Shown here in pieces: positions 29,221-64,000 of a stretch of 64,000 bases of DNA (its first letter is position 1; each line of letters opens with the position of its first letter). The notes below the pieces were generated by a model. That model did no database searches. It was given only the letters and a program-made list of their open reading frames with translations, and was not told where the DNA came from. The DNA is taken from the NCBI RefSeq assembly GCF_009914755.1, contig NC_060932.1. One strand, written 5' to 3'. This DNA comes from the human T2T-CHM13v2.0 reference genome, Homo sapiens. Position numbers and translations under genes: made by a program.

Positions 29221-29586
29221 GAATACACCAAATTTTGTTTATCCATTTATCAGTTGATGGACATATGGGTTGTTTCAACCTTTTTTTAATTATTAATAAT
29301 GCTGCTATCAATATTTGTATACGAGGCTTTGTAAAAAACATATGTTTTCAATTTTCTTGGGTAAATTCCTAGAAATGGAATTGCTGACTCATATGGTAAC
29401 TCTAGATGTAACATTTTGGAAAGTCGAAAAACTGTTTGCAGGGAGGCTACAACATTTAACATTCTCACCAGGAGTATTTAAAGCTTTCCATTTTTCCTTA
29501 TACTCATCAACATATGATAGTTTCTCTCTTTATAATTTTATCTATCCTAGTAGATGCAAAGTGGTATCTCCTTGTGATTTTGATTT
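29221..29586 (-). repeat. Local duplicate of L1MB segment 31226-31810 (pre-Alu state)
   Basis: Shares long identical runs with donor, e.g. catatgttttcaattttcttgggtaaattcctagaaatggaattgctgactcatatggtaactctagatgtaacattttg. Confidence 0.93.
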
Positions 29587-29638: not shown

Positions 29639-31432
29639 ACATTGAGTGTCTGTTGCACCCCTTGACATTGGATGGTGAGGTGAGCCCTTTGAGGAGTAGC
29701 TGAGATGAAAATGATAGAGGAACTAAGGGAAGAACATTCTTTACAAAGAGAACAGGTTCTCCCCGTTTAAAAGCCCTAACAAGTCTAGCTTTGAAGGTCT
29801 GGGTAAGACATTCAGATTATGTTTTAAATATGATAAGATGTATGTCCCTTAAAGTTCATCTTGTCAACAGAGTGGAGAATGGGTTGTTGTAGCTCAAGGA
29901 GAAAAGTGGGGTCTGTAGTATCTTCTCGTTAGTGTAACTCTAATGGTTAAGATAATGCGTGGCCCAAAGCTCAGTAAATGTTAAATGAAATAAATGAATG
30001 AATTATTCCCGGAAAGTTTATTCTCCACCATTGCAGTTCATTTATGCTTATAAAATTGAAATATTTTACTTCCTTCCTCAGTGTTTTTGACAAAGAAATA
30101 AATCAGAATATATCCAGAATCATAGACTGGTTTGGAGAAAATTTCTCTCACCTTTCTCATTCAGAATACTAGTCTTCTTCAAAATCTAAGAGCATCATTT
30201 TTTCCCTGCAATAAAATTTCTCTCATTCATTTTTAAAGTGTTTTCCAATATAACACTGCAAAATTAACTGTCACTGTAAGCACAATTTGGCTAAATCTAA
30301 CAAGACTTGCAGTATTGTTTTTCTCCTATATTTCTATGATAAAATGCTCTGAATACAGATTAACATTATTTCCTCAGTATTTGTTATTGTTTTACCTACT
30401 TCAAAACACAAACTGAAAGTTCTTTGATGAATGGACATAAAACTCGTTGGGTTTTACTTTATTGTCAGCAACTTCTGTTTTCTCATGCAAAATGTGATTT
30501 TGTAATTTTCTGCAGAAATACAGCCCAGCAGAACTCAGCTAATGCCTAGATGTCTAAGTTTCTTACTGAATGACTCTGTCTGACTCCCTGCCTTATGTTA
30601 CTATTATAACTGCCACCACATAACAGAGTCAGTTTTAGGTGTTGCTTGCTTTTAGCCCTGGGCACCGTGAAGATTTAGAGTGAGTAGATCCTGTTAGGTT
30701 TGGAAATCAGATATCAATCCAGAATCTGGTCCTTTTGGAGGTCTCCAAAGATGTAAGAAGCTCCAACTCATAGAGGCTGGAGAGGAACTCAAGAGCTAAA
30801 AGGTGAACAAGAGTACAAAGTCATGCAACCTGAAATGAGGTTTGTTTACTTTTTAAATAAACAATTACATTTTTATTGAGATATAATTGACATACAATTT
30901 ACTCCTTAAAAGTGTATATATAATTCAGCAATTTTTAGTAAATTTGCAGAGTTGTGCAAACATCATCATTATGTAATTTTAGAAAATTTGTACCACCTCA
31001 TAAAGACATACACTTATACTCAGTCCTCATTGCCCCTTCATTGCTAATCTACTTTCTCTCTCTGTATTTGCTTATTCTGGAATTTTTATATGAACGGGGT
31101 CATACAATATGTGGCCTCTTGTGGTTGGCTTCACTCTCTAAGCATAATGTTTTCAAGGTTCGTTCATTTTGTAGTATATATCGGTACTTCATTTCATTTT
31201 ATTGCTAAATAATATTCTATTGTGTGGATATACTAAATTTTGTTTATCAGTTGATGGACATATGGGTTTTTTTAATCTTTTTATTATTATGAATAATTCT
31301 GCTATCAATATTTGTATACAAGGCTTTGTGAAGTCATATGTTTTCAATTTTCTTGGGTAAATTCCTAGAAATGGAATTGCTGACTCATATGGTAACTCTA
31401 GATGTAACATTTTGAAAAGTTGACAAAGTATT

Positions 31433-31657
31433 GTCTCTATAAAAACACGAAAAATTAGCCAGGCATTGTGGCGGGCGCCTATAGTCCCAGCTACTCTGGG
31501 GGCTGGGGCAGGAGAATGGCGTGAACCCGAGAGGCGGAGCTTGCAGTAAGCCCAGATTGCGCCACTGCACTCCAGCCTGGGCGACAGAGCGAGACTCCGT
31601 TTCCAAAATAAAAAATAATAAACATAAAAAATAAAATAAAATAAAAAGAAATAAAAT
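31433..31657 (+). mobile_element. 5'-truncated AluY (right arm)
   Basis: gagaatggcgtgaacccgagaggcggagcttgcagt; 16-bp TSD gaaaagttgacaaagt (31414-31429)/gaaaagctgacaaagt (31658-31673). Confidence 0.95.
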
Positions 31658-34112
31658 GAAAAGCTGACAAAGTGTTTACAGGGAGGCTGCAACGTTTAGC
31701 AGTGTTTAAGGGTTCCAATTTTTCCATACCCTCATCAAGACATGATAGTTTCTCTGTAATTTTATCTATCCTAGTAGATGCAAAGTGGTACCTCATTGTG
31801 ATTTTGATTTCCATGATGTTGAATACCTTTGCATATATTTATTAACAATTTTTATATCTTCTTTGAAGAATTATCTATTCAAGTTATTTGGCCATCGAAA
31901 ATTAAATTTTCTATATGTTTGTTGAGTTATAAGTGTTCTTTTTATATACTGGATACAAGTGCTTTATCAGATGTATGATTTGAAAATATCTTCCCCCATT
32001 CTGTGGCTGATTTTCACTTCCTTGATGATTTTCTTAGAAGTATATATTTTTTCTAATTTTCGTGAAAATCCTATTTTTTTCTTAATTGCTCTTGCTTTTT
32101 GTATCACATCCAGGAAACATTGCTCAACCCAAAATCATGGATATTTATTCTTATTTCCTTCTATGAGTTTTATAGTTTTTGCTCTTACATTCATGTCAAT
32201 AATAAATAATATGTGACATGTCAATGATCCATTTTGGTCCATATAACAATTTCTGTTATATGTAGCATGGAGTCCAGAATAATTATTTTGCCCATAGGTA
32301 TCCTACTGTACCAGTAGGATTTGCCGAAAAGATGATTATTCTCCCATTGGCACACTTCCTGAAAATCAACTGACCACCAATGTAAGAATATATTTCTTGA
32401 CCCTCAATTCCATTCTTTCTATAAGTCTTTATGACAATACCACACTGTCTCAATAAGAGTATTTTATAACTTTTTGACATCAAGAATTATAAGAGCTTCA
32501 AATTTTTTTTAAGAATATTTTGGCCATGCTAGGACTTTTTAATTTCCATATGGATTTAGGACCAGACTGTGAGTTGTTTTTGTTTGTTTGTTTTTTCCAA
32601 AAAATCCGTCTAGTAGTTGATAAGGGTTATTTTAGATCTGTAGTTCAATTGAGGGAGAGTTGCCATCTCAACCATGTTATATCTTCATATCTATGAACAT
32701 AAAAATATAAAATGTCTTTTCATCAATTTATGCCTTCTTTAATTTCCTTCAATAGTGTTTTGTAGTTTCTGGTGTATAAGTTTTATGCTTCTTTTGTTAA
32801 ATGTATTCCCAAGTTTCTTTTTTATTTTTCCAGATATTATTAGAAATTAATATATTTTTATTATTTCCATTTTTGGATGATTCATTGACAAAGTATACAA
32901 AAACAATTGATTTATTTATATTGATCTTATATCCTAAAACCTTGCTGAAGTCATTTATTGTTTCTGATTGTAGATTCCTATTTTTTATTCAATTTAATGT
33001 CATCTGTAAATAGAGATAGATTTATTTTTAGCTTTTAAATCTGAATGCTTTATATTTTATTTTTATTCCTAATTACTCTAGGTAATATGTCTAAAACCAT
33101 GTTAAATAGATGTTGTAAGAACAAATACTCTTGCCTTGTTCCTAATTTGATGAAAAAAATTTTCGATCTTTCACTATTAAGTATGAAGGTAGCTATGGTC
33201 TTGGGAAATTCCCTTCTATTCCAATTTGTTGAGTATTTTATTTTTAAAAGATGTTTAATTTGTGAAACAATTTTAATTCTTTATCTATTGAGTTGATCAT
33301 GTGGTTTTTTTTTTCTTTAGAATACTATTATGGGATATTACATTGAGTTTCATATGTCAAACAAACCCTGAATTTCTGATATAAATTCCACCTGGATGTT
33401 GTATATAATTCTTTTTACATATGGTAGATTCAGCTAGGTAGTATTCTGTTGGGAATTTTTGCCTCTTTATTCATAGAGGATGTTGTCTGAAGTTTCCTTA
33501 TAATTTATTGGTATGGCTTTGTTATCAGAGCAATACTAAATTCACGCAATTGGTTATAAAGTGTTTTGTCCTCTCCAATTTTTTAAAAAACAATGTATAA
33601 AGATTGGTGTAAATTCTATAAAGACTTAGTAGAATTCATAATTGAAACAATTTTGGGACTGGGACTGTTTTGTGATAAGCCTTAATAATAACAATTCAAT
33701 TGTTTTACTGGTTACAGAACCAGTCACATTTTCTATTTCTTCCTGACTCAATTTCAGTAACTTAGGTCTCTCGAGGGAATGTCTATGTCATCTAAATTAT
33801 ACAATTTGGTGACACACAACTGCTTACACTATTTCTTTATAATATTTTAATTATTATTATTTCCTAAGATCAGTAGTAAGGTCCACTGTTTCATTCTACA
33901 CTTTAATCTGATACCTCCCTCTTCTTTAATGTAAAGTTTTTTCAGTTTTGTTGCTGGTTCTTTCCAAAAATCCAACTTTTGGTTTGTTGAATTTCTCTAT
34001 TATTTTTCTATTTTTTTAAATTTATTTTCATTCTAATCTTCATTATCCCTTTATGAGCTTAGTTAGGTCTTCTGTTCTAGTTTCTCAACGTATAAACTTA
34101 AGTGATTGATTT

Positions 34113-34289
34113 GCGATATTTCTTCTTCGTTAATATAGGTGTTTACAGGCATTAACCATTTCCTTAGATGCATGCCCCACACTTTGTTATGCTGTGTTTT
34201 TATTTTCATTCATTTTAAAGTATTTTAAAATTTATTTTAATAATTGTTTGACCTATTGCTTATTATCACATATTATTATCAACATTAAT
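34113..34289 (+). repeat. Left copy of ~180-bp direct repeat flanking LTR12
   Basis: tatttcttcttcgttaatataggtgtttacaggcattaaccatttccttagatgcatgcc... repeated at 35244-35430. Confidence 0.93.
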
Positions 34290-35244: not shown

Positions 35245-35430
35245 AGGTATTTCTTCTTCATTAATATAGGTGTTTACAGGCATTAAGCATTTCCTTAGAT
35301 GCATGCCACATGCTTTGTTATGCTGTCTTTATTTTCATTCACTTTAAAGTATTTTAAAATTTATTTTAATGATTATTGTTTGACTTATTGCTTATCACAT
35401 CACATAATTAATATTGTTATCAATATTAAT
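35244..35430 (+). repeat. Right copy of ~180-bp direct repeat flanking LTR12
   Basis: tatttcttcttcattaatataggtgtttacaggcattaagcatttccttagatgcatgcc... Confidence 0.93.
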
Positions 35431-49619: not shown

Positions 49620-50320
49620 AAATAAATCAAAGTAATAAAATCAGGATAATAATTCTGATCAGATACTTATCATCATTATAATGAGATCCTAACCCCTAAA
49701 CATTCCAGGAGAAAACAGTGGGATTGGTGAGCTTGAGGGACTTTATATAGTGTGTACTTGGAAGGCCTCTGATGAACTGCAATTAAGCTGAGATCCTAAA
49801 GAAATGTTGGGAGGGAACATAGCGATATCTAGTTCATAAACATTGGAACAAGTGCCCTGAGGAAGAAAAGAGCTGCTATGTTAAAGAGTGAAAGATAAGG
49901 TCGGTGTGGCTAGAGAAGAAGACATAATAAGGGGATCGATGAGACACGTGGTCAGAGCCAAGAGCAGGTCATGAAGGGCATTGTAGGCAAACAGTGTAAG
50001 AAATTTGAATATCATGCTATTTTCTGTGGTAAGTCATGAGAGCATGTTAAGTAGGATTTTAAGTATGCCATGATTAACTTGGAGTTCAGAAAAATCATAG
50101 TGGTTTACAAATATCGCGGATTGCAGGAGTAGTTTTAGCACAAGGATTTGGAGACAAATGCAAGAGATAACAGTGGCAGCCCTTCGGGATGGTTGCTAGG
50201 TAGGGAGATAATGGTAGGAGGCGGGATTCAGCACATACTGTGAAGATAGTGTCTATGGAATTTATTGATGTTTTGGTCATGACAAAGAGAGAAGTCAGAG
50301 GAGATTTTTCAGCCAATGTA
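49620..50320 (-). mobile_element. L2 fragment
   Basis: ggaaggcctctgatgaactgcaattaagctgagatcctaaag...ggtcggtgtggctagag...gaatttattgatgttttgg. Confidence 0.75.
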
Positions 50321-53300
50321 CTGTGTTCGGTCTCTGTCATGGGTATTGGGTGCTGATGAGAATTCCTCACTTGGCTCTGCAGAAGAGCACACTGAGCCTT
50401 GTCTTTTGCTTGAACTCCATGCATATCAAGCTTGTGTCCAGGGTCGCCCTGCTTAACATGGCATGGACTGCCAACTTCACTCTCTCATTTCTTTTCAATA
50501 TCAGTCAACAGGAATATATGTAGACATACAGTTATTCTTGCCTGGTCTTCATCTGCTATGGTTTTCCTTTGGGAATCCTCCTCCCTAGAGAAGCAATGCA
50601 GCATCACGGATCTACACAGTCCTAGGCTTCGGGTCCTTATTGTAAAGTCCTCGTTTAATGAGAGAGCAATCCTGTAGGTTAATGAAGAGCATCGGCTATC
50701 TCTTAGAGGTAGACCGTGAGAAACAAGAAACTCCTCTGTTTACTGTGATATGAATCCTATGACTTTAGGGTATTGTAAGAGACTGAGGAAAGTGTTTACC
50801 TACCTTCCTCTAGTGTTACAGATTATTTCTATGCAGATATAAGATATGGTTACATACATGCATTTAATTATCCTTGATTCTGGCCATCAGTATTCTGTGC
50901 ATTTCCTTTCATTTTTTAATGAAATATGCTTTCATTTTTAATCTCATGCATGTATTATATTGAGAAAATGAGAAATACTGAGTCAAAATCGGCACTGAGG
51001 TTTCTGTGGGAAAAAAAATCACACACACAGAAAAAGTTGATATTCAAAAAGTGGTATTCAACAATGAGCCTTATGTAGCATCTAAAATAAAGGCTGGCCT
51101 GATACAAAACAAACACAAAAAATAATTATTTGTTTCAATAAATGGTTTGGAGTCTGCTAAAATTATTATCTGCATTCATTATGAATCAACATACTAGCCA
51201 AATTTGGAAAGGACAACGAAGTTTAAAATACATTGCATTTCTTGATTTTTAATTAAAAATAATTATTCATTCGGTGCAGAGACAGACAAATACACAACCT
51301 ATTTTTAATTAAGACCAACTCAAATGCATTTTTGTAAAAGTGGACTGGCTTTGGAAAAAGGACTGAATTTTAAATAGACAAACTAAATGAAACAGACTAT
51401 TACTCTTCTGGTGATAAAATATAAAGTTTACTATAAGGAAACACATTTTTAAAAATATGTTTTTTTAGACTTCCATGGATATTTTGATTTGTAAATACTC
51501 TTTCCACAAGGAATATCTGATATTTGATATCTTGCTAGATTTTATGTTTTATTTGATGCAATCTTCTCTGTATCTTATCAGATTCTTACAACAATCTTGT
51601 GAATTACGTTAGAAATTCTATTTGTCTTCTTTAATGTAAAACTGATTGGTCCAAAGTTAACATAGCATGTGAGTGGCAGAGCCAGGATATTAATACTGTA
51701 ACCCTGTTGGTTTCCCCCCCCTCTAATTTCTTTACACTTGGCATGATACAATAGCATAGGATGTACTCTGGATTTTTCAGGACATTGCCACTGTTCCCAC
51801 TTGAATTATTCAATCATATGCATACTTGAAGTCACATTTTAAGTTGGAAACTGTGGTAATTATAATAAACTATTAACTCCATGGTTTTTTCAAAATCATA
51901 AATAACTACAAAGTTTCCTGCAATATTGAGCAATCAAAGATAGAGGGAACTCCGTTCTAAAACAAGAAAAATAGGGGAACTTATAAACAAATGTCATCCA
52001 TCTTAGTTGATCATTGGCTTCTCATGTTTTACTTGGAGAAATGTTCTCTCTACATAATTCCTCAGAAAAGACTAAAATTTAACGTACCAGCAACTGGATG
52101 AGATAAGCTGTAAGCTTTGAGTAATCACCCTGTCGCCTAGCTCCTCGATTCTAGAAGGCTGGAAATATTAACAAAAATTTGATTTACACATCAAAGTTCT
52201 TGTTTGAAATAGTTTAATATTTCATTCTATTAATTCAAAAATATTAATATTTATAATAATCTGCTTTATCTTGAAATCCAGTACATTGTGTTCCAAGGAC
52301 ATTATAATTTGTATTTTAACATGCTCTGTGAAGGACACAGATTAAATTCCTGATGTGTGGCATTAAACATTATAAAAGTGGCCTATATTTCTGCGAAAGA
52401 AGAATCCTCAGTTACGATTTTATTAAAAGAATAGAAATTTACAAATGCAAATCTAATATCTGGAAAGACATGGAGTAAATGCATAGGATGTGGCTCCAAG
52501 TGAGCATTAGGTATAAAAACAGGCCACCTTTTGAACCTGTGCATGAAAAGCAAGGACTCTTACTGCTCATCCATTCTGTGGAGGGGAAGAGGAGGCCTAG
52601 TAATTGAGAGTGTAAGACCTCATGAGGCTTTGCAAAGTGGGGAGCCATTAGGAACAATGACTTGACATCAGTCTCTTGCTCTTTGTGACAATAACTCTCT
52701 GAATATCTCCACCAGGTCATCCCAGAATACTTACACTTCAGTATCTGTTTGGTTTCCTCCACTTACTTCTCTTGGAGATTCTCAGTATAGACAAAAAGTA
52801 TTTGTCCATTTTTTAGGAGCTCAAAAGATATTTTTTGAATGTATGGCATCTGAGTGAGCAGATCAAACGTGCTAAGATCTTTTTAAGAGTAAAACTACTT
52901 TAAATATCCATTTCATCTCTATCACTGAATAGTAATCGAGAACACTATGAATTTAACCTTTCTGCACCTCAGTTTTCTCACCTGCCATGATTAAGGTAAT
53001 AATAACTCACTCAGGGACTTATTCTAATTTTGAAAACATTGTCATTTACAAAAGTCCCTAGATCAGTGCCTGGAATATGTAAGATACACAATATGTATGA
53101 ATTTCTCTTTTTCTTTCAAAGGACTACTGGAGCCAGTCCAGGCTCTGAGGGTATGAGGGTGGCAGAGAGAGTGAACCCAAAAAGTGAGGAGGAGATGGTG
53201 AAGCAAGCTCTGAGGGCAACTTGACTGCCTGCAGTTAAACCTGCAGTGTCTCTAGGCAGGAACTGATTGTGCCACGGCGAATCAGTGAAGAAGCTGTTTG

Positions 53301-54240
53301 AGTAAGAAAAATCTTGGGTTATAAAACTCAAACTTGAAAATCAGAGAATGCCAATTAACCCCTGGACTTCTGGTGATCATGGTCTATGGTAAATAATGTT
53401 ATTAAACAAGACTGGAATAGCGTATTGATTTCACATTTTGAGAGGCCTTGGATGAATTATACAATTGTTTAATTTTATGTGGTCAATAATAGGGAACTGA
53501 TGATATTTCTAAAAAGCACTGTGAAACAACTTGATAATGCAAAGGTTGATTTCATTTCAGTGTGGAAGTGATAAATTAGGGGTTGGAAAGATTAGAGTCA
53601 GGGAGGCCAATGATGACAATTGTTTAAAAAGATCAATCTCCCTACAAAATAACCTCTTCCTGAAATCACATCCCTGTCTAATATATGCAACACAAATCTC
53701 TTTTCTCTTGAACATAGTTTTGATTTGTAATTTAGATTAACTTGGAAAAAACATTGTGAACCCAACTAGTGACTGTATATTGCATGTCACTTCCTTGAGG
53801 ATTTTCTTTATCTTTAAAAAAAAATTTCCCAGAATAGCTACCATATCTTGCAGTTATTCAAGTTATTTTTTCCTGATAACTTTTATCTTCCTTTGCCTAT
53901 TGAGCTCATTTTATTTAATAAGTTATTGTTTGAAGTGTTATTTATTGAGCACTTCCCAAGTGGTAAGTACACTACTAAACATTTTGCATACATTACCACA
54001 TTTAATCCTCACAACAAATCTCTGGGTACTGCTTCCCTGTTGGAGACAAGGATGCCAATACTGAAATGTTTAGTTAACTTAGCCAAGGTCAAAGAGATTC
54101 TACAAGCCATTGGCTAAAGGGTAAAACTCATATTCTGTGGAGAACAAAAATCTGTAGTATCTTCCTTCTTGAAGCCTGGCCTAACTCAGAAAAATAAAGA
54201 AAATTACCTTTGAAATCAGAAAGATTCAAGTTTGAATATG

Positions 54241-54294
<54 letters not shown>
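54241..54294. repeat. (TC)n(AC)n compound microsatellite within a MIR
   Basis: tgcgctctctctc...cacacacacacag. Confidence 0.93.
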
Positions 54295-54295
<1 letters not shown>

Positions 54296-54766
54296 TTTCT
54301 ATCTATAAGATCATTTACCTAAACTATTGGCGCCCTTATTAGTAAAATGAAACGAATAGTATCTGCCTAAGAAAGCTCAGGTTGAACTTGACCTAAAATA
54401 GCATTTGTAGAACAACCAGCTGGATTGTTCAAAAATGGCAAGTTCCCTTCTCAGCTCTATACCTCCTTTTGCGCAAAATCCATCGTATTTTAGTGATTAG
54501 TTAACACTTCTTCTCTGGTCTGGTCAACTGTTCATACCGAGATGGCAAGAAAGTTTTCCCATTAATCCTTGTGTTCCCAGTCCTAATTCAATGCCTGGAA
54601 TTTAGGAGCTTGGCAGTCATTTAATGAACCCTTAAGTAAGTAGGCAAAGGCATAAATCACTTCTCTTCAATCACTTCTCCTAAGTCACTTCTGCTTCAAT
54701 CACTTCTCCTAAAGTCTGTTGGAAATAATAAGGCATCCAGTGTAGAAGTTTACAGAAGAGCCCTAA

Positions 54767-54791
54767 TGTGTGTGTGTGTGTGTGTGTGTGT
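54767..54791. repeat. (TG)n microsatellite
   Basis: tgtgtgtgtgtgtgtgtgtgtgtgt. Confidence 0.95.
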
Positions 54792-56020
54792 ATGCACATG
54801 GGTGTGGCAAAGAGACCATGGGGAAACTATCTCCAGCCATGCTCTAATGTGATGCATAAACCAAATTAAAGAAAATGTAAATAGAAATTAGACCTGTGGA
54901 AAACAGAAAGAATGGAATATGATAACCAAGAGGACTAGTGAAGCACCAAATTAGTCTCTACACCTCCTGGTTACCGTGGCAAAGAGTAAAACACAGTAAG
55001 CAACGTAATTCTGATTAGCAGGAAGAAAGACGCCTACTTAAATTTTTCCTGGCATCTAATTATAAAAACATGTGATAAAAGGGGCTGTCAGAGGTTGAGC
55101 TCAGAGGAACATAACCTGTAGAGAAGTAAAGGCTCAGAGCATCACAGAACATCTGTGAGAACCACTGTATACCAAGTGCAGCCCTCTCTAATCCCCACAT
55201 TAAACTTGTTTCTGGCACATGAAACATTTACCACATCCACCTCTTACTCACATGCACTTTCTATGGCATGGGATCCACTTAGATATTTTTTCCTTTCCTG
55301 TATTAACTTGGCAAGGGATTCGACCATGCCTGACCAGTGCTTCCAACTCAAATACCTAGCATTCCTGCCCTGCTCAGATTCTCTTAGTCCTTCTCTCGCC
55401 TGACTCAAGCACCTGGCTTCCTTCTTCTACCAGGAGAGTCTTCTCACATTTCCTGTTCGTAGACTGAAAATACTTGCTGGGTTTATTTGTTCCTATAGGT
55501 GCATCCTCTGCAAGACTGAAGATAGTGAGACAAAACCCTCATCCTCATATTCAGCTCTATGTACCCAAAACTCAACATAGTGCCTGTCACAGAGCAGGTG
55601 CTCAGGAAATGTAGAGAATGTTAAACTGGGGAGTGTCATCTTGTTAAATGGCTGAAATAGTGCAGGACCTCATAAAGGAGACATAGTACTATCTAATGGA
55701 CAATATACTTCAGAATGAGTCATGATTTCGCTATCAAAGGATGAATGTAAACTTAGACTTCAACGAGCACATTAGTCCCAGTTCAAAAAAGGAAATTGCT
55801 CTGCTTCATGCTGCTAAAGAATAAACTTCAGTTCCTTAGCCCTGCAGTTAAATCCCTGCATGAGAATATTAATTTAAAGCCATGATCTCAATGGTATCCA
55901 TATTTTAAGAATCACACTCCCGTATCCATAAAAGAATAGTTGGGCATGGATCACTAATATATGTATAACTATTTAATATTTACATACCAGAATCACCTTA
56001 TTAATGTAGTTCCTGTGCCT

Positions 56021-56165
56021 TAATATGTTTTGTACCTAAAACATATTAATATGTTTTGTACCTAAAACATATTAATATGTTTTGTACCTAAAACATATTA
56101 ATATGTTTTGTACCTAAAACATATTAATATGTTTTGTACCTAAAACATATTAATATGTTTTGTAC
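56021..56165. repeat. Perfect 26-bp tandem repeat, 5.6 copies, quasi-palindromic
   Basis: Unit taatatgttttgtacctaaaacatat at 56021, 56047, 56073, 56099, 56125, partial at 56151. Confidence 0.97.
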
Positions 56166-56539
56166 TCTGTTTTGTCTCCTTTCACATTGTGTCTGTTCCA
56201 GCATCCACAACTCTAGACATAACAGATTGATTGCTAAGAAATTTTTATTCCTTTTTGTTTTTATACCATCTGTTCACACAGCCTTGAAAGATCTTTAGTA
56301 TTTTTTTTTGTCCAGTATCTTGAAGACATTTAAAATGTCACCTCCTATGTGAAGACTTCCTTCATCTTTTGTTTTAATTAATAAGTCCTCTGGGCTTTCA
56401 CAAGCATTTTGCTTAGTTTACATTCTTATTTCAATATGCTTGATTTGTTTGTCCTACTAGATTTAAAACTCTTAAACTGTTAGAGACAAAGACCAAGATT
56501 TTAAAAGAAAAAAGCTTCCTGGCTTCTTTGTGAGCTCAA

Positions 56540-57795
56540 ATACACACACACACACACACACACACTCACACATACACACACGCTATACACACATTCACAA
56601 AAATATGTACATATATATGGTGATATATATTATATATACACATAATATATATAAACACACATATATATTATACAAACACATGAGTGAAGGGTATATTACG
56701 TATTATGTATACAATATATATTATATATAATGTATTATGTATATTATATATTATATATAATGTATATAATATACAACATATGAGCTTTCAAAGTTGAGCA
56801 GGCTGTCAGGGGAGCATCTCTCCAACTTTATGCTTCAACTGTATGCTTCAAACTTTGGACATTTAACTCACATCCATGCACACATAAATTTTGTAGCTAG
56901 CCACCGATAAAATAGGACACTATGTGGCCCAATAGGGCTCCAGCTTAAGACAAGATATGACATAAATATAATATACATTATATTATATATACATTATATA
57001 CATTATATTATATAATATATACATTATATAATGTATATATGTATATATACATTATATAATGTATATATGTATATATACATATATATAATGTATATATGTA
57101 TATATACATTATATATAATGTATATATGTATATATACATTATATATAATGTATACATTATATGTATATATACATATATACATTATGTTTAGGTCATTAAT
57201 ATATTATATATTATATACATTATATTTATGTCATACCTTGTCTTATATTATATATTATATATATTATATACATAATACATACACATACACACATATTTAC
57301 ACATAAAATAGATATACACATAGCTGCGCATATACACATGTATGTGCATACACATGTACCCATATAGGCATGTGCATGTGCACATATGTATTCATGTGGA
57401 TATACACACACATATGCACACATAGATACTTATGAACACATATATTTAGTAACATCAAAGATGGTTTTGCAAATCTAGTAACACCTAATTTTCTATAGTT
57501 TGCAAGTGTTGTCAGATATATTATCTCATTTACTCAATTTGGATTAATATAATATATATTATTATATATATTAGGCCTTTCACCGATGTGTTTGTATAAT
57601 ATATAAATATATAATATATATGATGTAATATATGATATATCATATAATATATAAATATATAATATGTAATACATTATAACATTTATATATAATATATTAT
57701 TACATATATTAAATATTATTACATATATTATATATTATAATATAGTTTTCTATGTAATATATAATAATGTATATAATACCCTTCACCCATGTGTA
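56540..57795. repeat. TA-rich microsatellite region carrying templated copies of downstream DNA
   Basis: 56778-56829 = rc(58508-58559); 56838-56968 = 59011-59141; 57273-57547 = rc(59463-59754); separated by (TA)n-type filler. Confidence 0.95.
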
Positions 57796-59569
57796 TCTTT
57801 GAGTTTCCAATGTTACACTATCATAATTTCCAACCTAAATTCAATAGTAAATAATGCTCTTTTCTTCTGCAGTCTCTTGCATTGATGTAATTTTTGGTAT
57901 ATATATGCACTGAAACTATTTATTTAAAACTATTGGAGTGAAAGCTATGGTGTGTTTTCACATTATCTTGTTTGCTATTTACAGCAATCTTTTAAAGAAG
58001 TTGGAAGAGGTGAGAAACTCCATCTGATAAGAAAACAGAATCTTTAAGAAGTGGACTTGCTGATGGTCACAGGGCTAGCGAAAGGTGAGCCTGGTATAAA
58101 CAACATTTAGTGGCATAAAATGTAGTTGTCCTGTGTGTGAAAGTTCTGTAGGGAAGTAGCTAAAGTGGGATATTTATTATCAATAAAAACAATGCAGCCT
58201 CCCAATGGAGATATATTCATCCATTGTTAAATTTTGGTCTTGAATAAACCATAAGCTGTGTTTAAATGACTGATGAAGATATTTTCTATGGCTAATTTTA
58301 TGAGACTTAAGTAAGTTAGTGGTCCTGAGCTCTAAGAAAAATTGCAAATATGTTCTCTTTTCCTCACATTAATTATGAGAAGCAGTTGGCTTAAACTTAG
58401 AATAAATAATTGGACTGTGGTCTGAGATACTCTACTAACCTATTGTGTTATGTAAGGTAAATTACCGGACCTTTCTGCAATTGAGTTCCCTTGCTTGTTA
58501 AAAATGGAAAGTTGGAGAGGTGCTCCCCTGACAGCCTGTTCAACTTTGAAAGCTCATATAATTCCATTATTACATTCAGCTAATGAAGTATGTGTGTTAG
58601 CTGAGAAGTGACTTCTTTTTCTTCAAAATGACTCATTTTTCCCAATAAATGATTTATCCAATCCATTTCCTAGGAAGAATATTTATTTTAGTCTGATGAT
58701 GTACAGTATGCATTTTACCAGTAATACAAGTTTCAGTGGTTAATGAGCCATGACTATGTCTAAGCATGATATATCTTCATCTTCCCTCAACTTCAATGGA
58801 AGAGCACCTTGCTGTAATAGACTTAAAAAGGAGGCTGCCCACCACTTTTCCTTTCAAGGAAAGTTTCTTAAGCCTCAAATTCTAATGGGATTTGGCTCAA
58901 AATCAGAGGTATTTGTAATTGTATGTGTCACTTTTGACTCATGTAGCTGATTCCAATATGAAACTGAGATTACGAAACCCTATTCCTACTTATGATAAAT
59001 GATGAGAAACACTGTATGCTTCAAACTTTGGACCTTTAACTCACATCCATGCACACACAAATTTTGTAGCTAGCCACCCATAAAATAGGACACTATGTGG
59101 CCCAATAGGGCTCCAGCTTAAGACAAGACATGACATAAATAATCTTTCTCTAGCCTGGTTTTTTTTTTTTTTTTAACTGTTTCCTTCTCCATCTCTCTTA
59201 TGATCGCTCTCTTTTTGGATAATGCTTTCCTTCTTTGCACCCAGTGACATATTTGACTTTTCTGGCACGATTATATGTCTTCATCCTAGAACAGATTTGT
59301 TTTCCTGTTCACTCCTTACAGCCTGTAATTGAAGTTGCCCTTGGCACTGGTCAGCTTGGCTAGCTTCATGCTAGCCATCATTCCATTATCATGGAATAAA
59401 TCATAGGGATTTATTCCATATCCCTATGAAAGAGGATTTGGTGACTACAACACCAAGGGAGCTTAATCCAAATTGTCTGAGTAAATGAGATAATGTATCT
59501 GACAACACTTGAAAACTATAGAAAATTAGGTAAATGTTACCATATTTGCAAACCACCTTTGATGTTACT

Positions 59570-59875
59570 AAATATATGTATATATGTGTTCATAAGTATA
59601 TATGTGTGCATATGTGTGTGTATATCCACATGAATACATATGTGCAACATGCACATGCATATATGGGTACATGTGTATGCACATATATGTGTATATGCCC
59701 AGCTATGTATATATCTATTTTTATGTGTAAATATGTGTGTATGTGTATGTATTAGGCATGCATTTGTATGTGTATGCTCTATGTATGTATTATATATGCA
59801 TATTTGTATCTGTATATGCTATATCTGTATGTATTATGTGTGCACGTGTTTGTATGTGTTAGTTATATGTGTATG
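59570..59875. repeat. (TATG)/(TG)-rich low-complexity repeat
   Basis: atatatgtatatatgtgttcataagtatatatgtgtgcatatgtgtgtg... Confidence 0.85.
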
Positions 59876-61725
59876 CCATAAATTTAAGTCAGATTGTTGG
59901 AGCTGTCCTTGCTGAACAGTATCTACTGCCCTGTTTAACCTTATTCTTGACTAACATTAGCACAGCTCTATTCCATTTTTGATTTCCTGTCTCAGCTTAT
60001 TTCTTTCTTTAGAGCTGCAACTACCTGATTCCTTCACTGAGACATGACCGTTTCCTGCTTTCTAAGGTAAGCCTTGATAGAGGGCATGAAGGCTTTTTAA
60101 AGCACTCTGGTCTCATGCGCTGGGAGAGACCATTTGATGCCACTCATAACACTTGATTAGCTCCGTGCCCCATTTAGATTACCTGACTTTTGCCTTGTTA
60201 CTGCATATGTACAAATCTTTAACTCAGTTCTCCCTAACATCAGAATATTCCCTTTGCTATCCCAACCCCTGCCTTTGGCTAGAGTCTAGCCCCTGTACAA
60301 GAACCATGCTTCTAGCAACTGCCTGCATTGCCCTGGGTATTATCAACTCAGGGTTTCCCAATTGATCTCCACCTACCTGTTGGAACACTGCATTGTTTAA
60401 TGTTCAACTTTTTTGATACTGACAGTCATTTGTGATTTAACCCTTCAGATAGCAGTGACAAAAAAAGTGACTACGATTACTTTTGCACCAAAGCACAAAT
60501 TTGTTTGCCCCCAGTGGATATATTTTAAGACTTTTTGCAAACAGCAAACAATAGCAAGAAAGGTGAAAATGTTGTTTGATATGATTTTCTTCTAACCCAC
60601 AACCACACATAAGTGAGAAGATATCACTGTTGAGATCATTGTCATTCTTGGGTTAATCAAAAGAGTAAAAGAATTTAAAAATTGGGTAGGACGCAAAAAT
60701 AGAAATTGCTTCAGGTATGGGTTAAAGATGTAAATTGTGTATTTACTTGAATATGTAAATAAGGGTGAAAATGTAATAATTTTGTATTTCTGTTTTTCTA
60801 GAAATGTCCACATTGTATCTTGGATATTTCTTTAGTCACCTTATTCTGCTACTTAACATACTTCCTTTTAGCCTTACCTGCTAAAGCCTGCAAACTGCAA
60901 GGGGTTGCCCTGCCTTAGAAAATCAGAGCAGATCCTCAGATATGACTGTTTACTTTTACTTTCAACAGTTTAGATGTGTTAAGCACAAGTGGCAACCAAG
61001 ACGTTTCCTAAACCTGAAATTCCCCTGTGCTCTTCAGCAAAATCAGAAAAATAATGAACTCTTAATAACAAAAATGAGATATGAAACACAAAGATTCTGC
61101 ATTGAAATGAAAGTCTGAAAACCTTACAAAATAATTTAAAATGTTTCGAAAAACAAGCATGCAATTCCAACATTATAATATTGTGAAAAGTATATTAACA
61201 CCAGAATTTAAAGGGGTGCTTCTCCTTTGCATCTGAATTATTTGGCTAACCCAAGGCAATCCACAGAACCCCTCCAAACTTCAGTTGCCTCAACTAGACA
61301 TTTGGAATTATCATAGATACCTTTTCTCCAGATAGGGGCTGTCTCAGCCAATCTTGTATACTTTCATATCTGATTATGCAATTTCTACCTAATCCTTGTA
61401 GGAAGAGCAAAAGCTGAAATAGAAAGATTAGAATAGTTGTTTTCTATAGAAATGCAAGTCAAACTCTGATATGCTCAATTAAGATGCACATATGCACATC
61501 TTTCTCATTGCCACAATCTGGGCACACTTAGCCGTAAGGCATATTGGAATCCAACCAAGCGCATTAGAAATAGAGAAGTAAATACAGGAAGTACAGAACC
61601 TGGTTTTTTCTCTATTTCACATTCAGGCTCCTCTTTAATATCTCATGTACTCACTTAGCCAATCTTCTCTTGTCCCCAACTCATCAACCCCAAACCCACT
61701 ACATCCACGTGTTGTCATTTATTCT

Positions 61726-62390
61726 TGAGAAATAAAAATAAAATCCTAAGCCTCCCAAACAGAAGAAGAGACCCCCTCTTGGCCAAGGGGGACCCACAGA
61801 GAAGGTCTGACGTGCCTTGCTATACCAACTTCTTCACTAACCACCGTTGGACATTTTATCCTAAGGGTTAAACAGAAAGTAGTTTTTTTTGTTTTTGTTT
61901 TTGTTTAAGTTTTTCCATTCCCCCTTCCTTTTTTGTGGTTTCGACAAACATCTGTCAGCATTACTTTCTGATAAAAGACCATGAGCTGTGGACTAGTTCT
62001 GGCTGGTTTAAAGGGGCTGCACACATGGTGCCTCTGTATCCTCTGCTTCACCTTTTGACATATAAAACATAATTTTAATGCATTTAAATGTTAAGTCTCC
62101 AACCCAGAGTGAATATGGGACACATGTAATATCACTGTTGGTTTACTATGCACGTGTGCCCCTGCTTTGTGAATATCGTAGCTCCTCCTGTAAGCTGTGG
62201 AATATGTACACTTAGCCAACACATTCTATGTAAATTCCTGTCTCATCTTTTCTTTTTCAAAGTGCTTTCAGTTTCTACCAGAGGCTATGCCTCCCAGCCT
62301 GCAGGTTGGCCAGCTTGTAGGACACAACTTCTTGTAAGAAATAAAACTCTCCACTCCAAATTCATAAACCACCTGATTCTTCAGTTGACA
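61726..62390 (+). mobile_element. ERV1 solo LTR, MER39-like
   Basis: tgagaaataaaaataaaatcctaagcc...accccctcttggccaagggg...gattcttcagttgaca; 4-bp TSD ttct/ttat; inside an L2. Confidence 0.8.
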
Positions 62391-62623
62391 TTATTAATTC
62401 CCTGAACACAAAGTTTCTTTGCCTGGCTAAATTTTACACATTCGGGGGGTAGGTTGCCTTCTCTATATGGTCTCATAACAATATATATCTACCTCTACAA
62501 TGTCCCTTAATCTATATTATTATATTCACTGGCATTTTGTTTTATCTCTATTAGTAAAATGTAAGCTGCTTATGGGCATAGCATATGTCCTGTTCACTAT
62601 CTTAAGTGCCTTATACAGTAATA

Positions 62624-63008
62624 TACCACTATGCTTTCATTGTTCCTGCCTAAACTTATGTTGAAGTTTGATCCCCAATTTGGTGGTGTTGGGAGATGGG
62701 GCCTAATGCGAGGTGTTGGAATTATGGGGGCAGATTTATCTTAAATAGATTAATGCTCTCCTGAGGGTTTCTCTCTTTTCCTTGCTCTCTCACCATGTGA
62801 TTTCTTTGCACATGCCAACTCTCCTTCCACTTTCCACCATGAGTTCTTCCATTTTCTGCCATGAGTTGAATAATCCTGAGGACCTCGCTAGATGCAGATG
62901 CCCAATTTTGAACTTTCCAGCTACCAGAATTGTAAGCCAATAATCTTTTTTTATTAGACTACCCAGTGATGTGTATTCTGTTATAACAATACTTAATGGA
63001 CTAAGACA
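62624..63008 (+). mobile_element. MST (MSTB/D-like) solo LTR
   Basis: aaacttatgttgaagtttgatccccaatttggtggtgttgggagatggggcctaatg...atggactaagaca. Confidence 0.85.
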
Positions 63009-63439
63009 TACACACAGTAGGTATTAAATAGCTAACTTTTGACTGAATTAATGAACACACACACAGACAGACACACAGACTCAAACACATAGTTCACATG
63101 CAATATGCAAAGAAATTATAGAAGTTATAACCAGCTTTGCCTGGAATTCCTTCACTTGTTAGAAAATCATGAGGTCATATGAATCATCTTAATTTATGAA
63201 CAGCTATAAATACAACAACTTTTATTTTTATGCTGGAAGCAAATATACCTCCCAGTAGCATTGACAAAATAGTTACAGTTCTAATATCTGGAGTCACACA
63301 TGCAATGACTAGATCTTAGTCTTCAGGATAACAATGAACAAGTGTAACTACATAACCCTTTGTAATGTAAAAAATGTCTTTTACATATTATTATTTAATT
63401 ACCCCAACAATTTTATGTGATAGACTTTATTCATATCAA

Positions 63440-64000
63440 TATTATCAGTCAGGATCTAATGGGGTGATAGAAATCATGCCAGTTATTTTAAAAGAGAAAA
63501 AATATATATAATTATTGTTAACCAGGTTTTGAATATTTGGAATGAAAAAAAACAGGAGCAAAAATAAAAAGTTGAAATTATTAAAACTTAGAAACTCAGA
63601 GGAGGAAGGTCATAGATCTGGGAATGAGACAGCTGGTGAGGTATACTGGCCAGCTAGTGCTGGTATCTCTAAGGGTAGGTAATGTGGCTTGTTTCATGAG
63701 TGTTAGAAACACTGCAAATTTGAATAAACTGCTCACCTCTTCATGAAGAACCATTGCACCAGTGACACTCACAAGCACAAGAAGCAAAAACAGGCATATA
63801 GAGCAAACAGGAAGGGATACACCTCCATTTTCTCCCCTTTCTTTTGGTCTTCCTCCAGAAGTCTCTATTGGCAGATGATTAAAAAGAAGCCAATTTTCAA
63901 AACAGAAGTTTAGTTGAGCAAGTCATAGCCCCAGCACCACAAAGCAGAGTATAAAATGATGAGTCTGCTGTCCAGAGACAACATGATAATCACTGGCACA
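63440..64000 (-). mobile_element. Ancient LTR, LTR78-like
   Basis: cagtcaggatctaatggggtgatagaaatcatg...cccagcaccacaaagcagagtata...agagacaacatgataatcactggcaca. Confidence 0.55.

What the first reader, a model, noticed from the sequence alone, without database searches (positions are those of the whole stretch)
56662..57795. Fossil multi-jump templated insertion: ~1.1 kb assembled from ordered copies of downstream DNA joined by (TA)n
Seen: within a TA-rich tract the non-repetitive islands are copies of nearby downstream sequence, in order of increasing distance. 56676-56693 = rc(57777-57794), 17/18. 56778-56829 = rc(58508-58559), 50/52. 56838-56968 = direct copy of 59011-59141, 127/131, preceded by a false-start 'atgcttca'. 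57273-57547 = rc(59463-59754) with a few small indels. The sequence then returns to 57777. Most junctions fall in short AT runs. Established: chained local templated insertions are the signature of MMBIR/FoSTeS or polymerase-theta end joining. Inference: one germline repair event in which a 3' end at a (TA)n fragile site probed progressively further along about 2 kb of template, alternating with slippage synthesis of TA repeats. The ~3-4% divergence of the two indel-free copies suggests an event within primate (perhaps ape) evolution. Repeat annotation would probably hide this as simple repeat.
Basis: partly seen in the sequence, partly recalled or inferred. Interest (0 to 1): 0.8.

Follow-up and report, generated by a model that had tools for sequence, protein, structure and literature searches.

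The report
Patchwork insertion copied from nearby DNA
A 1.1 kb AT-rich stretch on human chromosome 8 is half made of copies of unique DNA lying up to 2 kb downstream, the old scar of a known kind of error-prone DNA copying; it is an unusually large and complex example, not a new mechanism.

Summary
All four islands in 56672-57776 are real copies of single-copy DNA lying 0-2 kb downstream, at the stated coordinates. Pooled identity is 458 of 475 aligned bases. Three islands are inverted and one is direct, and they lie in the same order as their sources.

Both are copied from the tract itself in inverted orientation:
- 57223-57245 closes a roughly 300-nt hairpin-forming palindrome.
- 57573-57605 is an inverted copy of island 1 plus its left flank.

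The filler is not (TA)n. It is an 84-100% AT, imperfect repeat of 28-30 nt.

Whole-genome searches rule out a transposon family. The order and orientation of the islands rule out a retrocopy or a simple duplication. The 3.6% divergence rules out an assembly artefact or recent cell-line change, and points to an age of roughly 15-20 million years.

The best reading is serial template switching (MMBIR/FoSTeS-like) at an unstable AT-rich tract. One event versus several cannot be settled, because no primate genomes were available.

Among 32 similar AT-rich tracts in this genome, three carry a copy of one nearby stretch (in L010 that stretch occurs three times locally). None carries copies from two or more different sources.

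This is a large fossil member of a known kind.

The parts
56596..56671 (.). Left AT-rich flank (84% AT), following a degenerate (CA)n at 56542-56593. Possibly the ancestral AT-rich tract where the event started.
56676..56693 (-). Island 1 (A): inverted copy of 57777-57794, 17 of 18. As 56675-56693 vs 57776-57794 it is 18 of 19.
56696..56777 (.). Filler F1, 82 nt, 89% AT, no template found.
56778..56829 (-). Island 2: inverted copy of 58508-58559, 50 of 52. Its last 9 nt, TCCAACTTT, match 8 of 9 to 59021-59029 inside the island 3 source.
   Evidence: sequence read
56830..56837 (+). False start: 8 nt equal to 59016-59023, with a 9th base shared with the start of island 3 (1 nt microhomology). 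Together with its neighbours it forms a 13-nt quasi-tandem repeat, 56823-56851.
56838..56968 (+). Island 3: direct copy of 59011-59141, 127 of 131, no indels.
56969..57222 (.). Filler F2, 254 nt, 90% AT, period 28-30, itself quasi-palindromic. With the two pieces beside it, 56946-57245 forms a hairpin of about 300 nt.
   Evidence: (I3-I6, I20)
57223..57245 (-). Island 3': inverted copy of the end of island 3. Over 21 nt it has 1 mismatch to 56946-56966 and 2 to the source 59119-59139. The match to island 3 runs on into the AT filler, so it is a foldback copy of the tract itself.
   Evidence: (I20)
57246..57272 (.). Filler F3, 27 nt, 96% AT.
57273..57547 (-). Island 4: inverted copy of 59463-59754, 264 of 274 aligned, 6 indel events.
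57548..57572 (.). Filler F4, 25 nt, 100% AT.
57573..57605 (+). Piece B: diverged direct copy of the start of the right flank (15 of 19 to 57776-57794), followed by 14 nt that are the reverse complement of the DNA left of island 1. There is a 20 of 20 match to rc(island 1 + left flank) across that junction.
   Evidence: (I25)
57606..57776 (.). Filler F5, AT-rich (93% AT over 57599-57776), ending at the unique right flank.
57777..57794 (+). Source of island 1: first unique bases of the right flank (C).
58508..58559 (+). Source of island 2, embedded in single-copy DNA in intron 1 of the predicted lncRNA LOC107986905.
   Evidence: hub table
59011..59141 (+). Source of island 3, single-copy.
59463..59754 (+). 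Source of island 4. Its right part lies in a TG/TA-rich low-complexity stretch that continues to about 59875, beyond the copied part. This marks the downstream copy as the original.

Best explanation
This is the old, fixed scar of replication-based repair with serial template switching at an unstable AT-rich tract. It works like MMBIR/FoSTeS, possibly with Pol theta-type abortive priming.

Inferred sequence of events: a 3' end stalled or broke in the AT-rich, hairpin-prone tract just upstream of 57777. It then repeatedly primed on single-stranded DNA within about 2 kb on the same side, using both strands. It copied 18, 52, 8 (aborted), 131 and 275 nt in turn. At least twice it folded back and copied the newly made tract itself, producing a roughly 300-nt palindrome and the island 1 / piece B inverted pair. 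It then resumed on the original template at 57777 with no loss of sequence.

Shown:
- The pieces, their templates, their order and their orientation.
- The direct abutment of islands 2 and 3.
- The uniqueness of the templates in the genome.
- The uniform divergence of about 3.6%.

Inferred:
- That all pieces came from one event.
- The enzymes involved.
- The direction of synthesis.
- That some of the AT-rich filler was made during the event. It could instead have been there before or have grown afterwards.
For: 1. The templates are local and single-copy. A search of the 3.1 Gb assembly with 58480-59800 found, at 90% identity or more, only the query itself and the three copies in the tract. The remaining listed matches all fall in the TG/TA-rich end of the query, at 67-79% identity.
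2. Three inverted copies and one direct copy lie in the same left-to-right order as their sources. An inverted duplication would reverse the order. A tandem duplication would keep the orientation. A retrocopy would give one orientation and exon-like borders.
3. Islands 2 and 3 are joined with no AT filler. Between them is an 8-9 nt re-copied false start with 1 nt of overlap at both joints. The end of island 2 matches 8 of 9 to a site inside the island 3 source. This is typical of abortive priming and re-annealing.
4. Two pieces are copies of the tract itself in inverted orientation, and each match runs across a junction into filler. 56940-57250 folds at -76.1 kcal/mol, against -41.4 +/- 3.4 for shuffles (z = -10.2).
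5. Divergence is 1/18, 2/52, 4/131 and 10/274, pooled 17/475 = 3.6% (CI 2.1-5.7%), homogeneous at p = 0.96. There are 10 transitions among the 17 differences. This fits one age and ordinary later decay.
6. The fillers retain no similarity to the DNA between the sources.
7. The kind is documented. [quoted passage not shown] Short-range template switches enriched at AT-rich DNA: PMC7954356, passages read. [quoted passage not shown]
Against: - No outgroup or population data could be consulted, so neither the empty allele nor single-step origin has been seen.
- The homogeneity test is weak. Per-island confidence intervals run from 0.1% to 27%.
- A monotone order of four pieces has only about a 1-in-12 chance value.
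- Only two junctions can be scored for microhomology, and each has just 1 nt. The others abut filler with no known template.
- Piece B is much more diverged (15 of 19 to the flank, 8 of 13 to island 1 in its non-AT part) than the other pieces. It may have a different age.
- Half of the tract (566 nt) has no identifiable template. AT-rich arrays change length on their own.
- In island 4, 6 of the 10 differences have G/C in the copy and A/T in the source. This suggests the source, not the copy, changed, so divergence says little about synthesis errors.
Confidence: 0.55

Rival explanations
1. Stepwise accumulation. The AT-rich, hairpin-forming tract is a recurrent break site. Several separate repair events captured nearby DNA at different times: for example islands 2+3 in one event, island 4 in another, island 1 / piece B and the palindrome in others. 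AT-rich repeat growth happened in between. On this view the order by distance is coincidence.
For: - Three of 32 comparable AT-rich tracts carry a copy of one nearby stretch (L010, L035, L038). Single captures therefore recur at such tracts and could add up.
- Piece B is far more diverged than the rest.
- The divergence test cannot separate ages within about two-fold.
- The monotone order is only a 1-in-12 coincidence.
Against: - Islands 2 and 3 are joined directly, so at least those two came together.
- None of the 32 other tracts accumulated copies from two or more different sources.
- All four divergences sit at 3-6%.
- All sources lie on one side, within 2 kb.
Confidence: 0.33
2. An ancestral duplication of the roughly 2 kb segment 57777-59754, tandem or inverted. 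Most of the extra copy was later deleted or replaced by AT-rich repeat, and islands flanked by self-complementary AT tracts inverted in place.
For: - The islands are collinear with the sources.
- AT-rich tracts are their own reverse complement and could in principle mediate small inversions (inference).
Against: - It needs three independent in-place inversions and four or more deletions.
- Island 2 (inverted) abuts island 3 (direct) with no AT tract between them.
- The fillers show no residual similarity to the intervening source DNA.
- An inverted duplication would give the opposite order.
Confidence: 0.05
3. A mobile element or a retrocopy. Either a transposon bounded by the island 1 / piece B inverted pair, or a processed copy of a transcript from the neighbouring lncRNA gene.
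For: - There is a 45-nt, 80% inverted pair at 56662-56706 / 57561-57605 (I25).
- The sources lie in order within intron 1 of a predicted lncRNA (hub table).
Against: - The end motif is no commoner in the genome than its reversed control (48 vs 51 matches at 2 or fewer mismatches).
- The internal pieces occur nowhere else in the genome.
- Orientations are mixed and there is no poly(A).
- The sources do not coincide with the annotated exons.
- Inverted pieces in ascending order fit a retrocopy in neither orientation.
Confidence: 0.02
4. An assembly artefact, or a rearrangement private to the sequenced cell line.
For: AT-rich palindromes are hard to sequence (general knowledge). Nothing in my calls supports this reading.
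Against: - Copies differ from their sources by 3.6% with an ordinary transition/transversion mix. A mis-join or a recent event would give near-identical copies.
- The structure spans only 1.1 kb, well inside the length of one long read (general knowledge).
Confidence: 0.02

Closest known systems
MMBIR / FoSTeS complex rearrangements (Hastings et al. 2009, PMC2621351; only the listing and abstract start were seen)
   Same: - Serial switching of a 3' end to nearby templates.
- Both orientations occur.
- Short or no homology at the joints.
- Sequence is gained without loss of the source.
   Different: - The described cases are mostly disease-associated copy-number changes of kilobases to megabases.
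- Here the pieces are 18-275 nt, the whole is 1.1 kb, fixed and millions of years old.
- Half of it is AT-rich filler with no identifiable template.
Germline complex MMB-TI events (Osia et al. 2021, PMC8421209; passages read)
   Same: - Germline insertions assembled from several nearby templates in forward and reverse orientation.
- Up to five templates per event.
- 33 and 26 complex events were found in the two individuals studied.
   Different: - That tool only looks for templates within 100 bp and for insertions no longer than a short read.
- Here the templates lie 0.7-2.4 kb away and one piece is 275 nt.
- That study filters out microsatellite calls, so tracts like this one would be discarded.
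Short-range template switching in great apes (Walker et al. 2021, PMC7954356, passages read; Loytynoja and Goldman 2017, PMC5453318, listing only)
   Same: - Inverted local copies that create hairpin-forming sequence.
- Events are enriched in AT-rich and poly(dA:dT) DNA.
- Events can be placed on the ape tree.
   Different: - That model is one switch-and-return.
- Median copied length is 12 nt and the maximum is 128 nt.
- Here there are at least six switches and pieces of up to 275 nt.
Pol theta end joining and mitotic MM-BIR (PMC13065848, passages read; 10.1101/2019.12.20.882852, abstract start only)
   Same: - Repeated abortive priming, false starts and snap-back copies.
- Complex insertions of three or more pieces.
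   Different: - Those were shown in cultured cells at induced breaks and at telomeres.
- The enzyme dependence cannot be read from a fossil sequence.
- A 131-275 nt piece suggests a more processive polymerase than Pol theta alone (inference).
Palindromic AT-rich repeats (PATRRs) such as the 8q24.13 one (PMC4255720, listing only) and AT-rich minisatellite fragile sites (recalled)
   Same: A several-hundred-nt AT-rich near-palindrome with strong hairpin potential.
   Different: - This locus is at 8q24.2x (CHM13 chr8:138.25 Mb), which is not the known PATRR8. That known site's position is recalled, not checked.
- No translocation role is known for this locus.
- Here the palindrome arms include a copied piece of unique DNA.

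Membership tests
Templated insertion by template switching (MMBIR/FoSTeS-type) | Inserted pieces have identifiable templates elsewhere, usually nearby in cis. | tested here: met
   Four pieces match single-copy DNA 0-2.4 kb away at 94-97% identity.
Templated insertion by template switching (MMBIR/FoSTeS-type) | Copy, not cut: the templates remain in place. | tested here: met
   All four sources are present and embedded in continuous unique sequence.
Templated insertion by template switching (MMBIR/FoSTeS-type) | Microhomology (about 2-12 nt) or microhomeology at the junctions. | tested here: inconclusive
   Only two junctions can be scored, with 1 nt each. There is an 8 of 9 homeology between the end of island 2 and the island 3 source. 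The other junctions abut AT filler of unknown template.
Templated insertion by template switching (MMBIR/FoSTeS-type) | All junctions formed in a single event. | not testable with these tools
   This needs primate orthologues or a de novo observation. Only the island 2 / island 3 abutment shows joint origin of two pieces.
Templated insertion by template switching (MMBIR/FoSTeS-type) | Excess point mutations and small indels near junctions, from low-fidelity synthesis. | tested here: inconclusive
   There are 6 indel events against 10 substitutions in island 4, but none in islands 2 and 3. The substitution spectrum is ordinary. Age confounds this test.
Short-range template switch (four-point model of Loytynoja and Goldman) | A single switch to the opposite strand and return, replacing or adding a short inverted copy within tens of bases. 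| tested here: not met
   There are at least six switches. Templates lie up to 2.4 kb away. One piece is direct.
Transposable element with terminal inverted repeats | Multiple copies of the ends or the body elsewhere in the genome. | tested here: not met
   The end motif is at chance frequency (48 vs 51 control). The body is unique.
Processed retrocopy | Exons joined in transcript order and in one orientation, with a poly(A) tail. | tested here: not met
   Orientations are mixed, AT filler lies between the pieces, there is no poly(A), and the sources are intronic (hub table).
Palindromic AT-rich repeat (PATRR) | A near-perfect AT-rich palindrome of several hundred nt, able to form a hairpin or cruciform. 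| tested here: met
   56940-57250 folds at -76.1 kcal/mol, z = -10.2. The arms are only 73-85% complementary, so it is an imperfect palindrome.
Palindromic AT-rich repeat (PATRR) | Mediates recurrent translocations or shows size polymorphism in the population. | not testable with these tools
   No population or patient data are available here.

The most novel reading that the evidence does not exclude
The order of templates is a time stamp. On this reading, a stalled leading-strand end kept priming on whatever single-stranded DNA had most recently been exposed, while the replicative helicase ran on uncoupled from the polymerase. The pieces (0, 0.7, 1.2 and 1.7-2.0 kb away) would then record the progress of unwinding during a single stalled-fork episode. 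The two foldback copies would mark moments when no external template was in reach. If so, fossil patchworks like this one would give a readable record of fork dynamics in the germline.
Probability: 0.08. Interest if true: 0.7.

Novelty: new member of a known kind. Interest (0 to 1): 0.4.

Why it matters
- **A clean, datable natural example.** It shows multi-step template switching in the human germline at a scale between known classes. Pieces are 18-275 nt and templates lie up to 2.4 kb away. Short-read callers and pairwise-alignment models see events of 130 nt or less with templates within about 100 bp. Clinical copy-number changes are kilobases to megabases.

- **A blind spot in current pipelines.** AT-rich tracts, which such pipelines mask or filter as microsatellite noise, can hide templated patchworks. 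In a small sample, about one in ten similar tracts (3 of 32) holds a copy of one nearby stretch.

- **A possible inversion substrate.** The insertion created a 275-nt inverted repeat pair with a 1.9 kb spacer. That spacer contains the first exon of a predicted lncRNA. The pair could support inversion polymorphism, which is testable in pangenome data.

None of this changes the current understanding of the mechanism.

Tried and rejected
- **Outgroup or orthologue comparison.** No primate genomes are held, and the genome tool states that the assembly has no relatives here. Polarity and age could not be tested directly.
- **Transposon reading.** Rejected.
- **Retrocopy reading.** Rejected on order, orientation and lack of poly(A).
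- **Tandem or inverted duplication followed by decay.** Rejected on order and orientation, and on the absence of residual similarity in the fillers.
- **More hidden islands.** I scanned 15-mers with at least 4 G/C and 1 or fewer mismatches from the fillers against 50000-64000. Nothing turned up beyond the edges of known pieces.
- **Other local duplicates in the window.** 29246-29586 vs 31243-31810 looks like two old LINE-1 fragments, one carrying an Alu. That naming is from recall, based on the sequence read. It is not a local copying event.
- **First self-BLAST of the comparison loci.** It timed out and was replaced by a k-mer method.
- **Pure (TA)20 pattern search.** It listed only the first few loci on contig C1 and was not used for the sample.
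- **Strand-coordinated damage.** All 4 differences in island 3 lie at a source C (post hoc p = 0.004). The contexts are not TpC and islands 2 and 4 show no such pattern, so I did not build on it.
- **Literature.** Six searches found no description of this locus and none of templates used in order of distance. That is all I can say about what is in print.

Full report
**1. The observation**

- Island 1: 56676-56693 = rc(57777-57794), 17 of 18.
- Island 2: 56778-56829 = rc(58508-58559), 50 of 52.
- Island 3: 56838-56968 = direct copy of 59011-59141, 127 of 131.
- Island 4: 57273-57547 = rc(59463-59754), 264 of 274 aligned bases with 6 indel events.
- The false start ATGCTTCA at 56830-56837 equals 59016-59023.

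None of this is chance.
- Shuffles of the window expect 0.05 matches to the 18-mer at 3 or fewer mismatches.
- In the whole 3.1 Gb assembly only three places match a 19-nt version at 1 or fewer mismatches: itself, its partner 1.1 kb away, and one on contig C23.

**2.

(a) 57223-57245 is an inverted copy of the end of island 3.
- Over 21 nt it has 1 mismatch to 56946-56966 and 2 mismatches to the original source 59119-59139.
- The match to island 3 continues into the AT filler (arms 56946-56991 / 57200-57245, 85%, I20).
- So it was copied from the tract itself, not from downstream.
- Together with the quasi-palindromic filler between them, it makes a roughly 300-nt hairpin. 56940-57250 folds at -76.1 kcal/mol, against -41.4 +/- 3.4 for 100 shuffles (z = -10.2).

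(b) 57573-57605 (piece B) resembles the start of the right flank (15 of 19).
- It shares with the reverse complement of island 1 a 20 of 20 match that crosses from copied sequence into AT filler.
- So island 1 plus its left flank, and B plus its right flank, form an inverted pair.

(c) The filler is not (TA)n.
- Its longest pure TA run is 8 nt.
- It is 84-100% AT with a 28-30 nt period.

Of the 1105 nt, 533 are templated pieces and 566 are filler. A scan of the fillers for further islands found none.

**3. What it is not**

- **Not a repeat family.** A whole-genome search with 58480-59800 returned, at 90% identity or more, only the query and the three copies in the tract. All other listed matches lie in the TG/TA-rich end of the query at 67-79% identity. 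The island 1 motif is no commoner than its reversed control (48 vs 51 at 2 or fewer mismatches).
- **Not a retrocopy.** Orientations are mixed, there is no poly(A), the sources are intronic, and inverted pieces in ascending order fit neither insertion orientation.
- **Not a simple duplication that later decayed.** An inverted duplication would reverse the order and a tandem one would keep the orientation. Island 2 (inverted) abuts island 3 (direct) with no AT tract between them. The fillers keep no similarity to the DNA between the sources.
- **Not an artefact or a recent cell-line change.** The copies differ from their sources by 3.6%.

**4. Which copy is the original**

- The downstream copies sit in continuous unique sequence.
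- The island 4 source lies in a TG/TA-rich stretch that runs on past the copied part, to about 59875.
- The upstream copies are cut off abruptly against AT filler or against each other.

Parsimony therefore makes the tract the derived side. An outgroup is still needed to prove it.

**5. Age**

- Core divergences are 1/18, 2/52, 4/131 and 10/274.
- Pooled, this is 17/475 = 3.6% (95% CI 2.1-5.7%), homogeneous at p = 0.96.
- Ten of the 17 differences are transitions, which does not differ from an ordinary spectrum (p = 0.45).

No known polymerase makes errors at a rate of several percent (recalled). Most of the divergence must therefore be post-event decay of two independently evolving copies. 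That places the event at about the depth of the human-orangutan or human-gibbon split, roughly 15-20 million years. Those reference divergences are recalled, not computed.

The homogeneity test has little power, with per-island confidence intervals up to 27%. All six indels are in island 4, mostly in repeat-like contexts.

**6. Mechanism**

The anatomy is that of serial template switching:
- nearby templates on both strands;
- an abortive 8-9 nt false start;
- 1 nt of overlap at the two scorable joints;
- an 8 of 9 homeology between the last nine bases of island 2 (TCCAACTTT, 56821-56829) and 59021-59029 inside the next template;
- two snap-back copies of the nascent tract;

The literature I read in part documents this kind of event.
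- Germline complex templated insertions from up to five templates (PMC8421209; passages).
- Short-range template switches in great apes, enriched at AT-rich DNA, with copied lengths of median 12 and maximum 128 nt (PMC7954356; passages).

I commit to a replication-based, MMBIR/FoSTeS-like event at confidence 0.55. The main rival is stepwise accumulation of separate captures at a recurrently breaking AT-rich hairpin, at 0.33. The direction of synthesis and the enzymes cannot be read from the sequence.

**7. Is it a general class?**

I took the loci in this genome whose AT-rich repeat most resembles the filler. One search scored 40 of 1090 first-look candidates and listed about 32 distinct places. 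I fetched 20 of these at 10 kb and 12 at 5 kb.

A k-mer method recovers this locus as a positive control, with six tract-to-flank segments. It uses 12-mers with at least 4 G/C, ungapped extension, at least 22 nt and at least 90% identity.

In the 32 comparison loci it found:
- **Two or more different nearby sources:** 0 of 32 tracts.
- **A copy of one nearby stretch, checked against the whole genome:** 3 of 32.
  - L010, chr2:117.265 Mb. Three local copies in + - + orientation. The third lies just outside the fetched stretch.
  - L035, chr5:86.39 Mb. A 78-nt inverted pair across the tract. One further 82% match lies at chr5:26.37 Mb.
  - L038, chr2:183.115 Mb. A 61-nt direct copy 290 nt away.
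- **L036:** an inverted 34-nt pair, both copies inside the tract. I did not check it further.
- **Dropped rows:** the hits in L020 and L021. One search shows that the L020 piece matches many other loci (Alu-like; the name is recalled). The L021 25-mer recurs twice in L021 and once in L024.
- **L039:** no tract by my threshold.

Caveats:
- The sample was chosen by similarity, not at random.
- The second batch reaches only about 2.5 kb each side.
- Older or gapped copies are missed.
- I did not measure a background rate at non-AT loci, so no enrichment is claimed.

The conclusion is that single captures of nearby DNA recur at such tracts. A multi-source chain is exceptional in this sample, so the marching order cannot be called a class.

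**8. Verdict**

- The interpretation as a fossil multi-jump templated insertion is the best reading, but single-event origin is unproven.
- The mechanism is a known one.
- The size, the number of switches (at least six), the two self-templated foldbacks and the state of preservation make it a good specimen, not a new kind.

Noticed in passing
window 56020-56165: A 26-nt unit (TTAATATGTTTTGTACCTAAAACATA) repeated 5.6 times at 100% identity, 0.5 kb upstream of the tract. The unit is partly self-complementary (inverted arms at 81-87%). Perfect identity suggests very recent expansion or homogenisation.
   Followed up: no
L010 (G000:C2:117265214-117266452): A 96-nt single-copy stretch occurs three times within 1.25 kb in + - + orientation (92-93% identity), next to AT-rich tracts. 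This is a simpler local copying event at a similar AT-rich locus.
   Followed up: partly
L035 1935-2012 and 2828-2905 (G000:C5:86391674-86392654): A 78-nt inverted pair (92%) brackets an AT-rich tract of about 900 nt. The arrangement resembles the island 1 / piece B pair here. One further 82% match lies at C5:26371174.
   Followed up: partly
L038 1742-1802 and 2026-2086 (G000:C2:183115434-183115785): A 61-nt direct copy (97%) of flank sequence lies inside an AT-rich tract 290 nt away. It is found nowhere else in the genome.
   Followed up: partly
window 56861, 56885, 56906, 56956 (island 3): All four differences between island 3 and its source lie at a C of the source on the same strand (C to A, T, G, T). 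Post hoc p is about 0.004. None is in a TpC or CpG context. The same CACCCAT to CACCGAT change is seen in island 3 (56906) and in piece B (57585).
   Followed up: partly
window 57273-57547 and 59463-59754: The insertion created a 275-nt inverted repeat pair with a 1.9 kb spacer. The spacer holds exon 1 (57991-58084) of the predicted lncRNA LOC107986905. This is a possible substrate for inversion polymorphism.
   Followed up: no
window 29246-29586 and 31243-31810: Two similar stretches 2 kb apart (91-99% in blocks). They look like fragments of an old LINE-1 3' region, the second interrupted by an Alu at about 31430-31660. The family names are from recall. This is an ordinary repeat pair, not local copying.
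   Followed up: partly
window 34117-34195 and 35248-35326: A 79-nt direct pair at 94% identity, 1.1 kb apart. I did not check whether it is a repeat family.
   Followed up: no
L014 2524-8418 (G000:C23:114966023-114971917): A very large AT-rich array of about 5.9 kb on contig C23, with the same kind of repeat as the filler. It contains internal 27- and 38-nt tandem sub-arrays.
   Followed up: no
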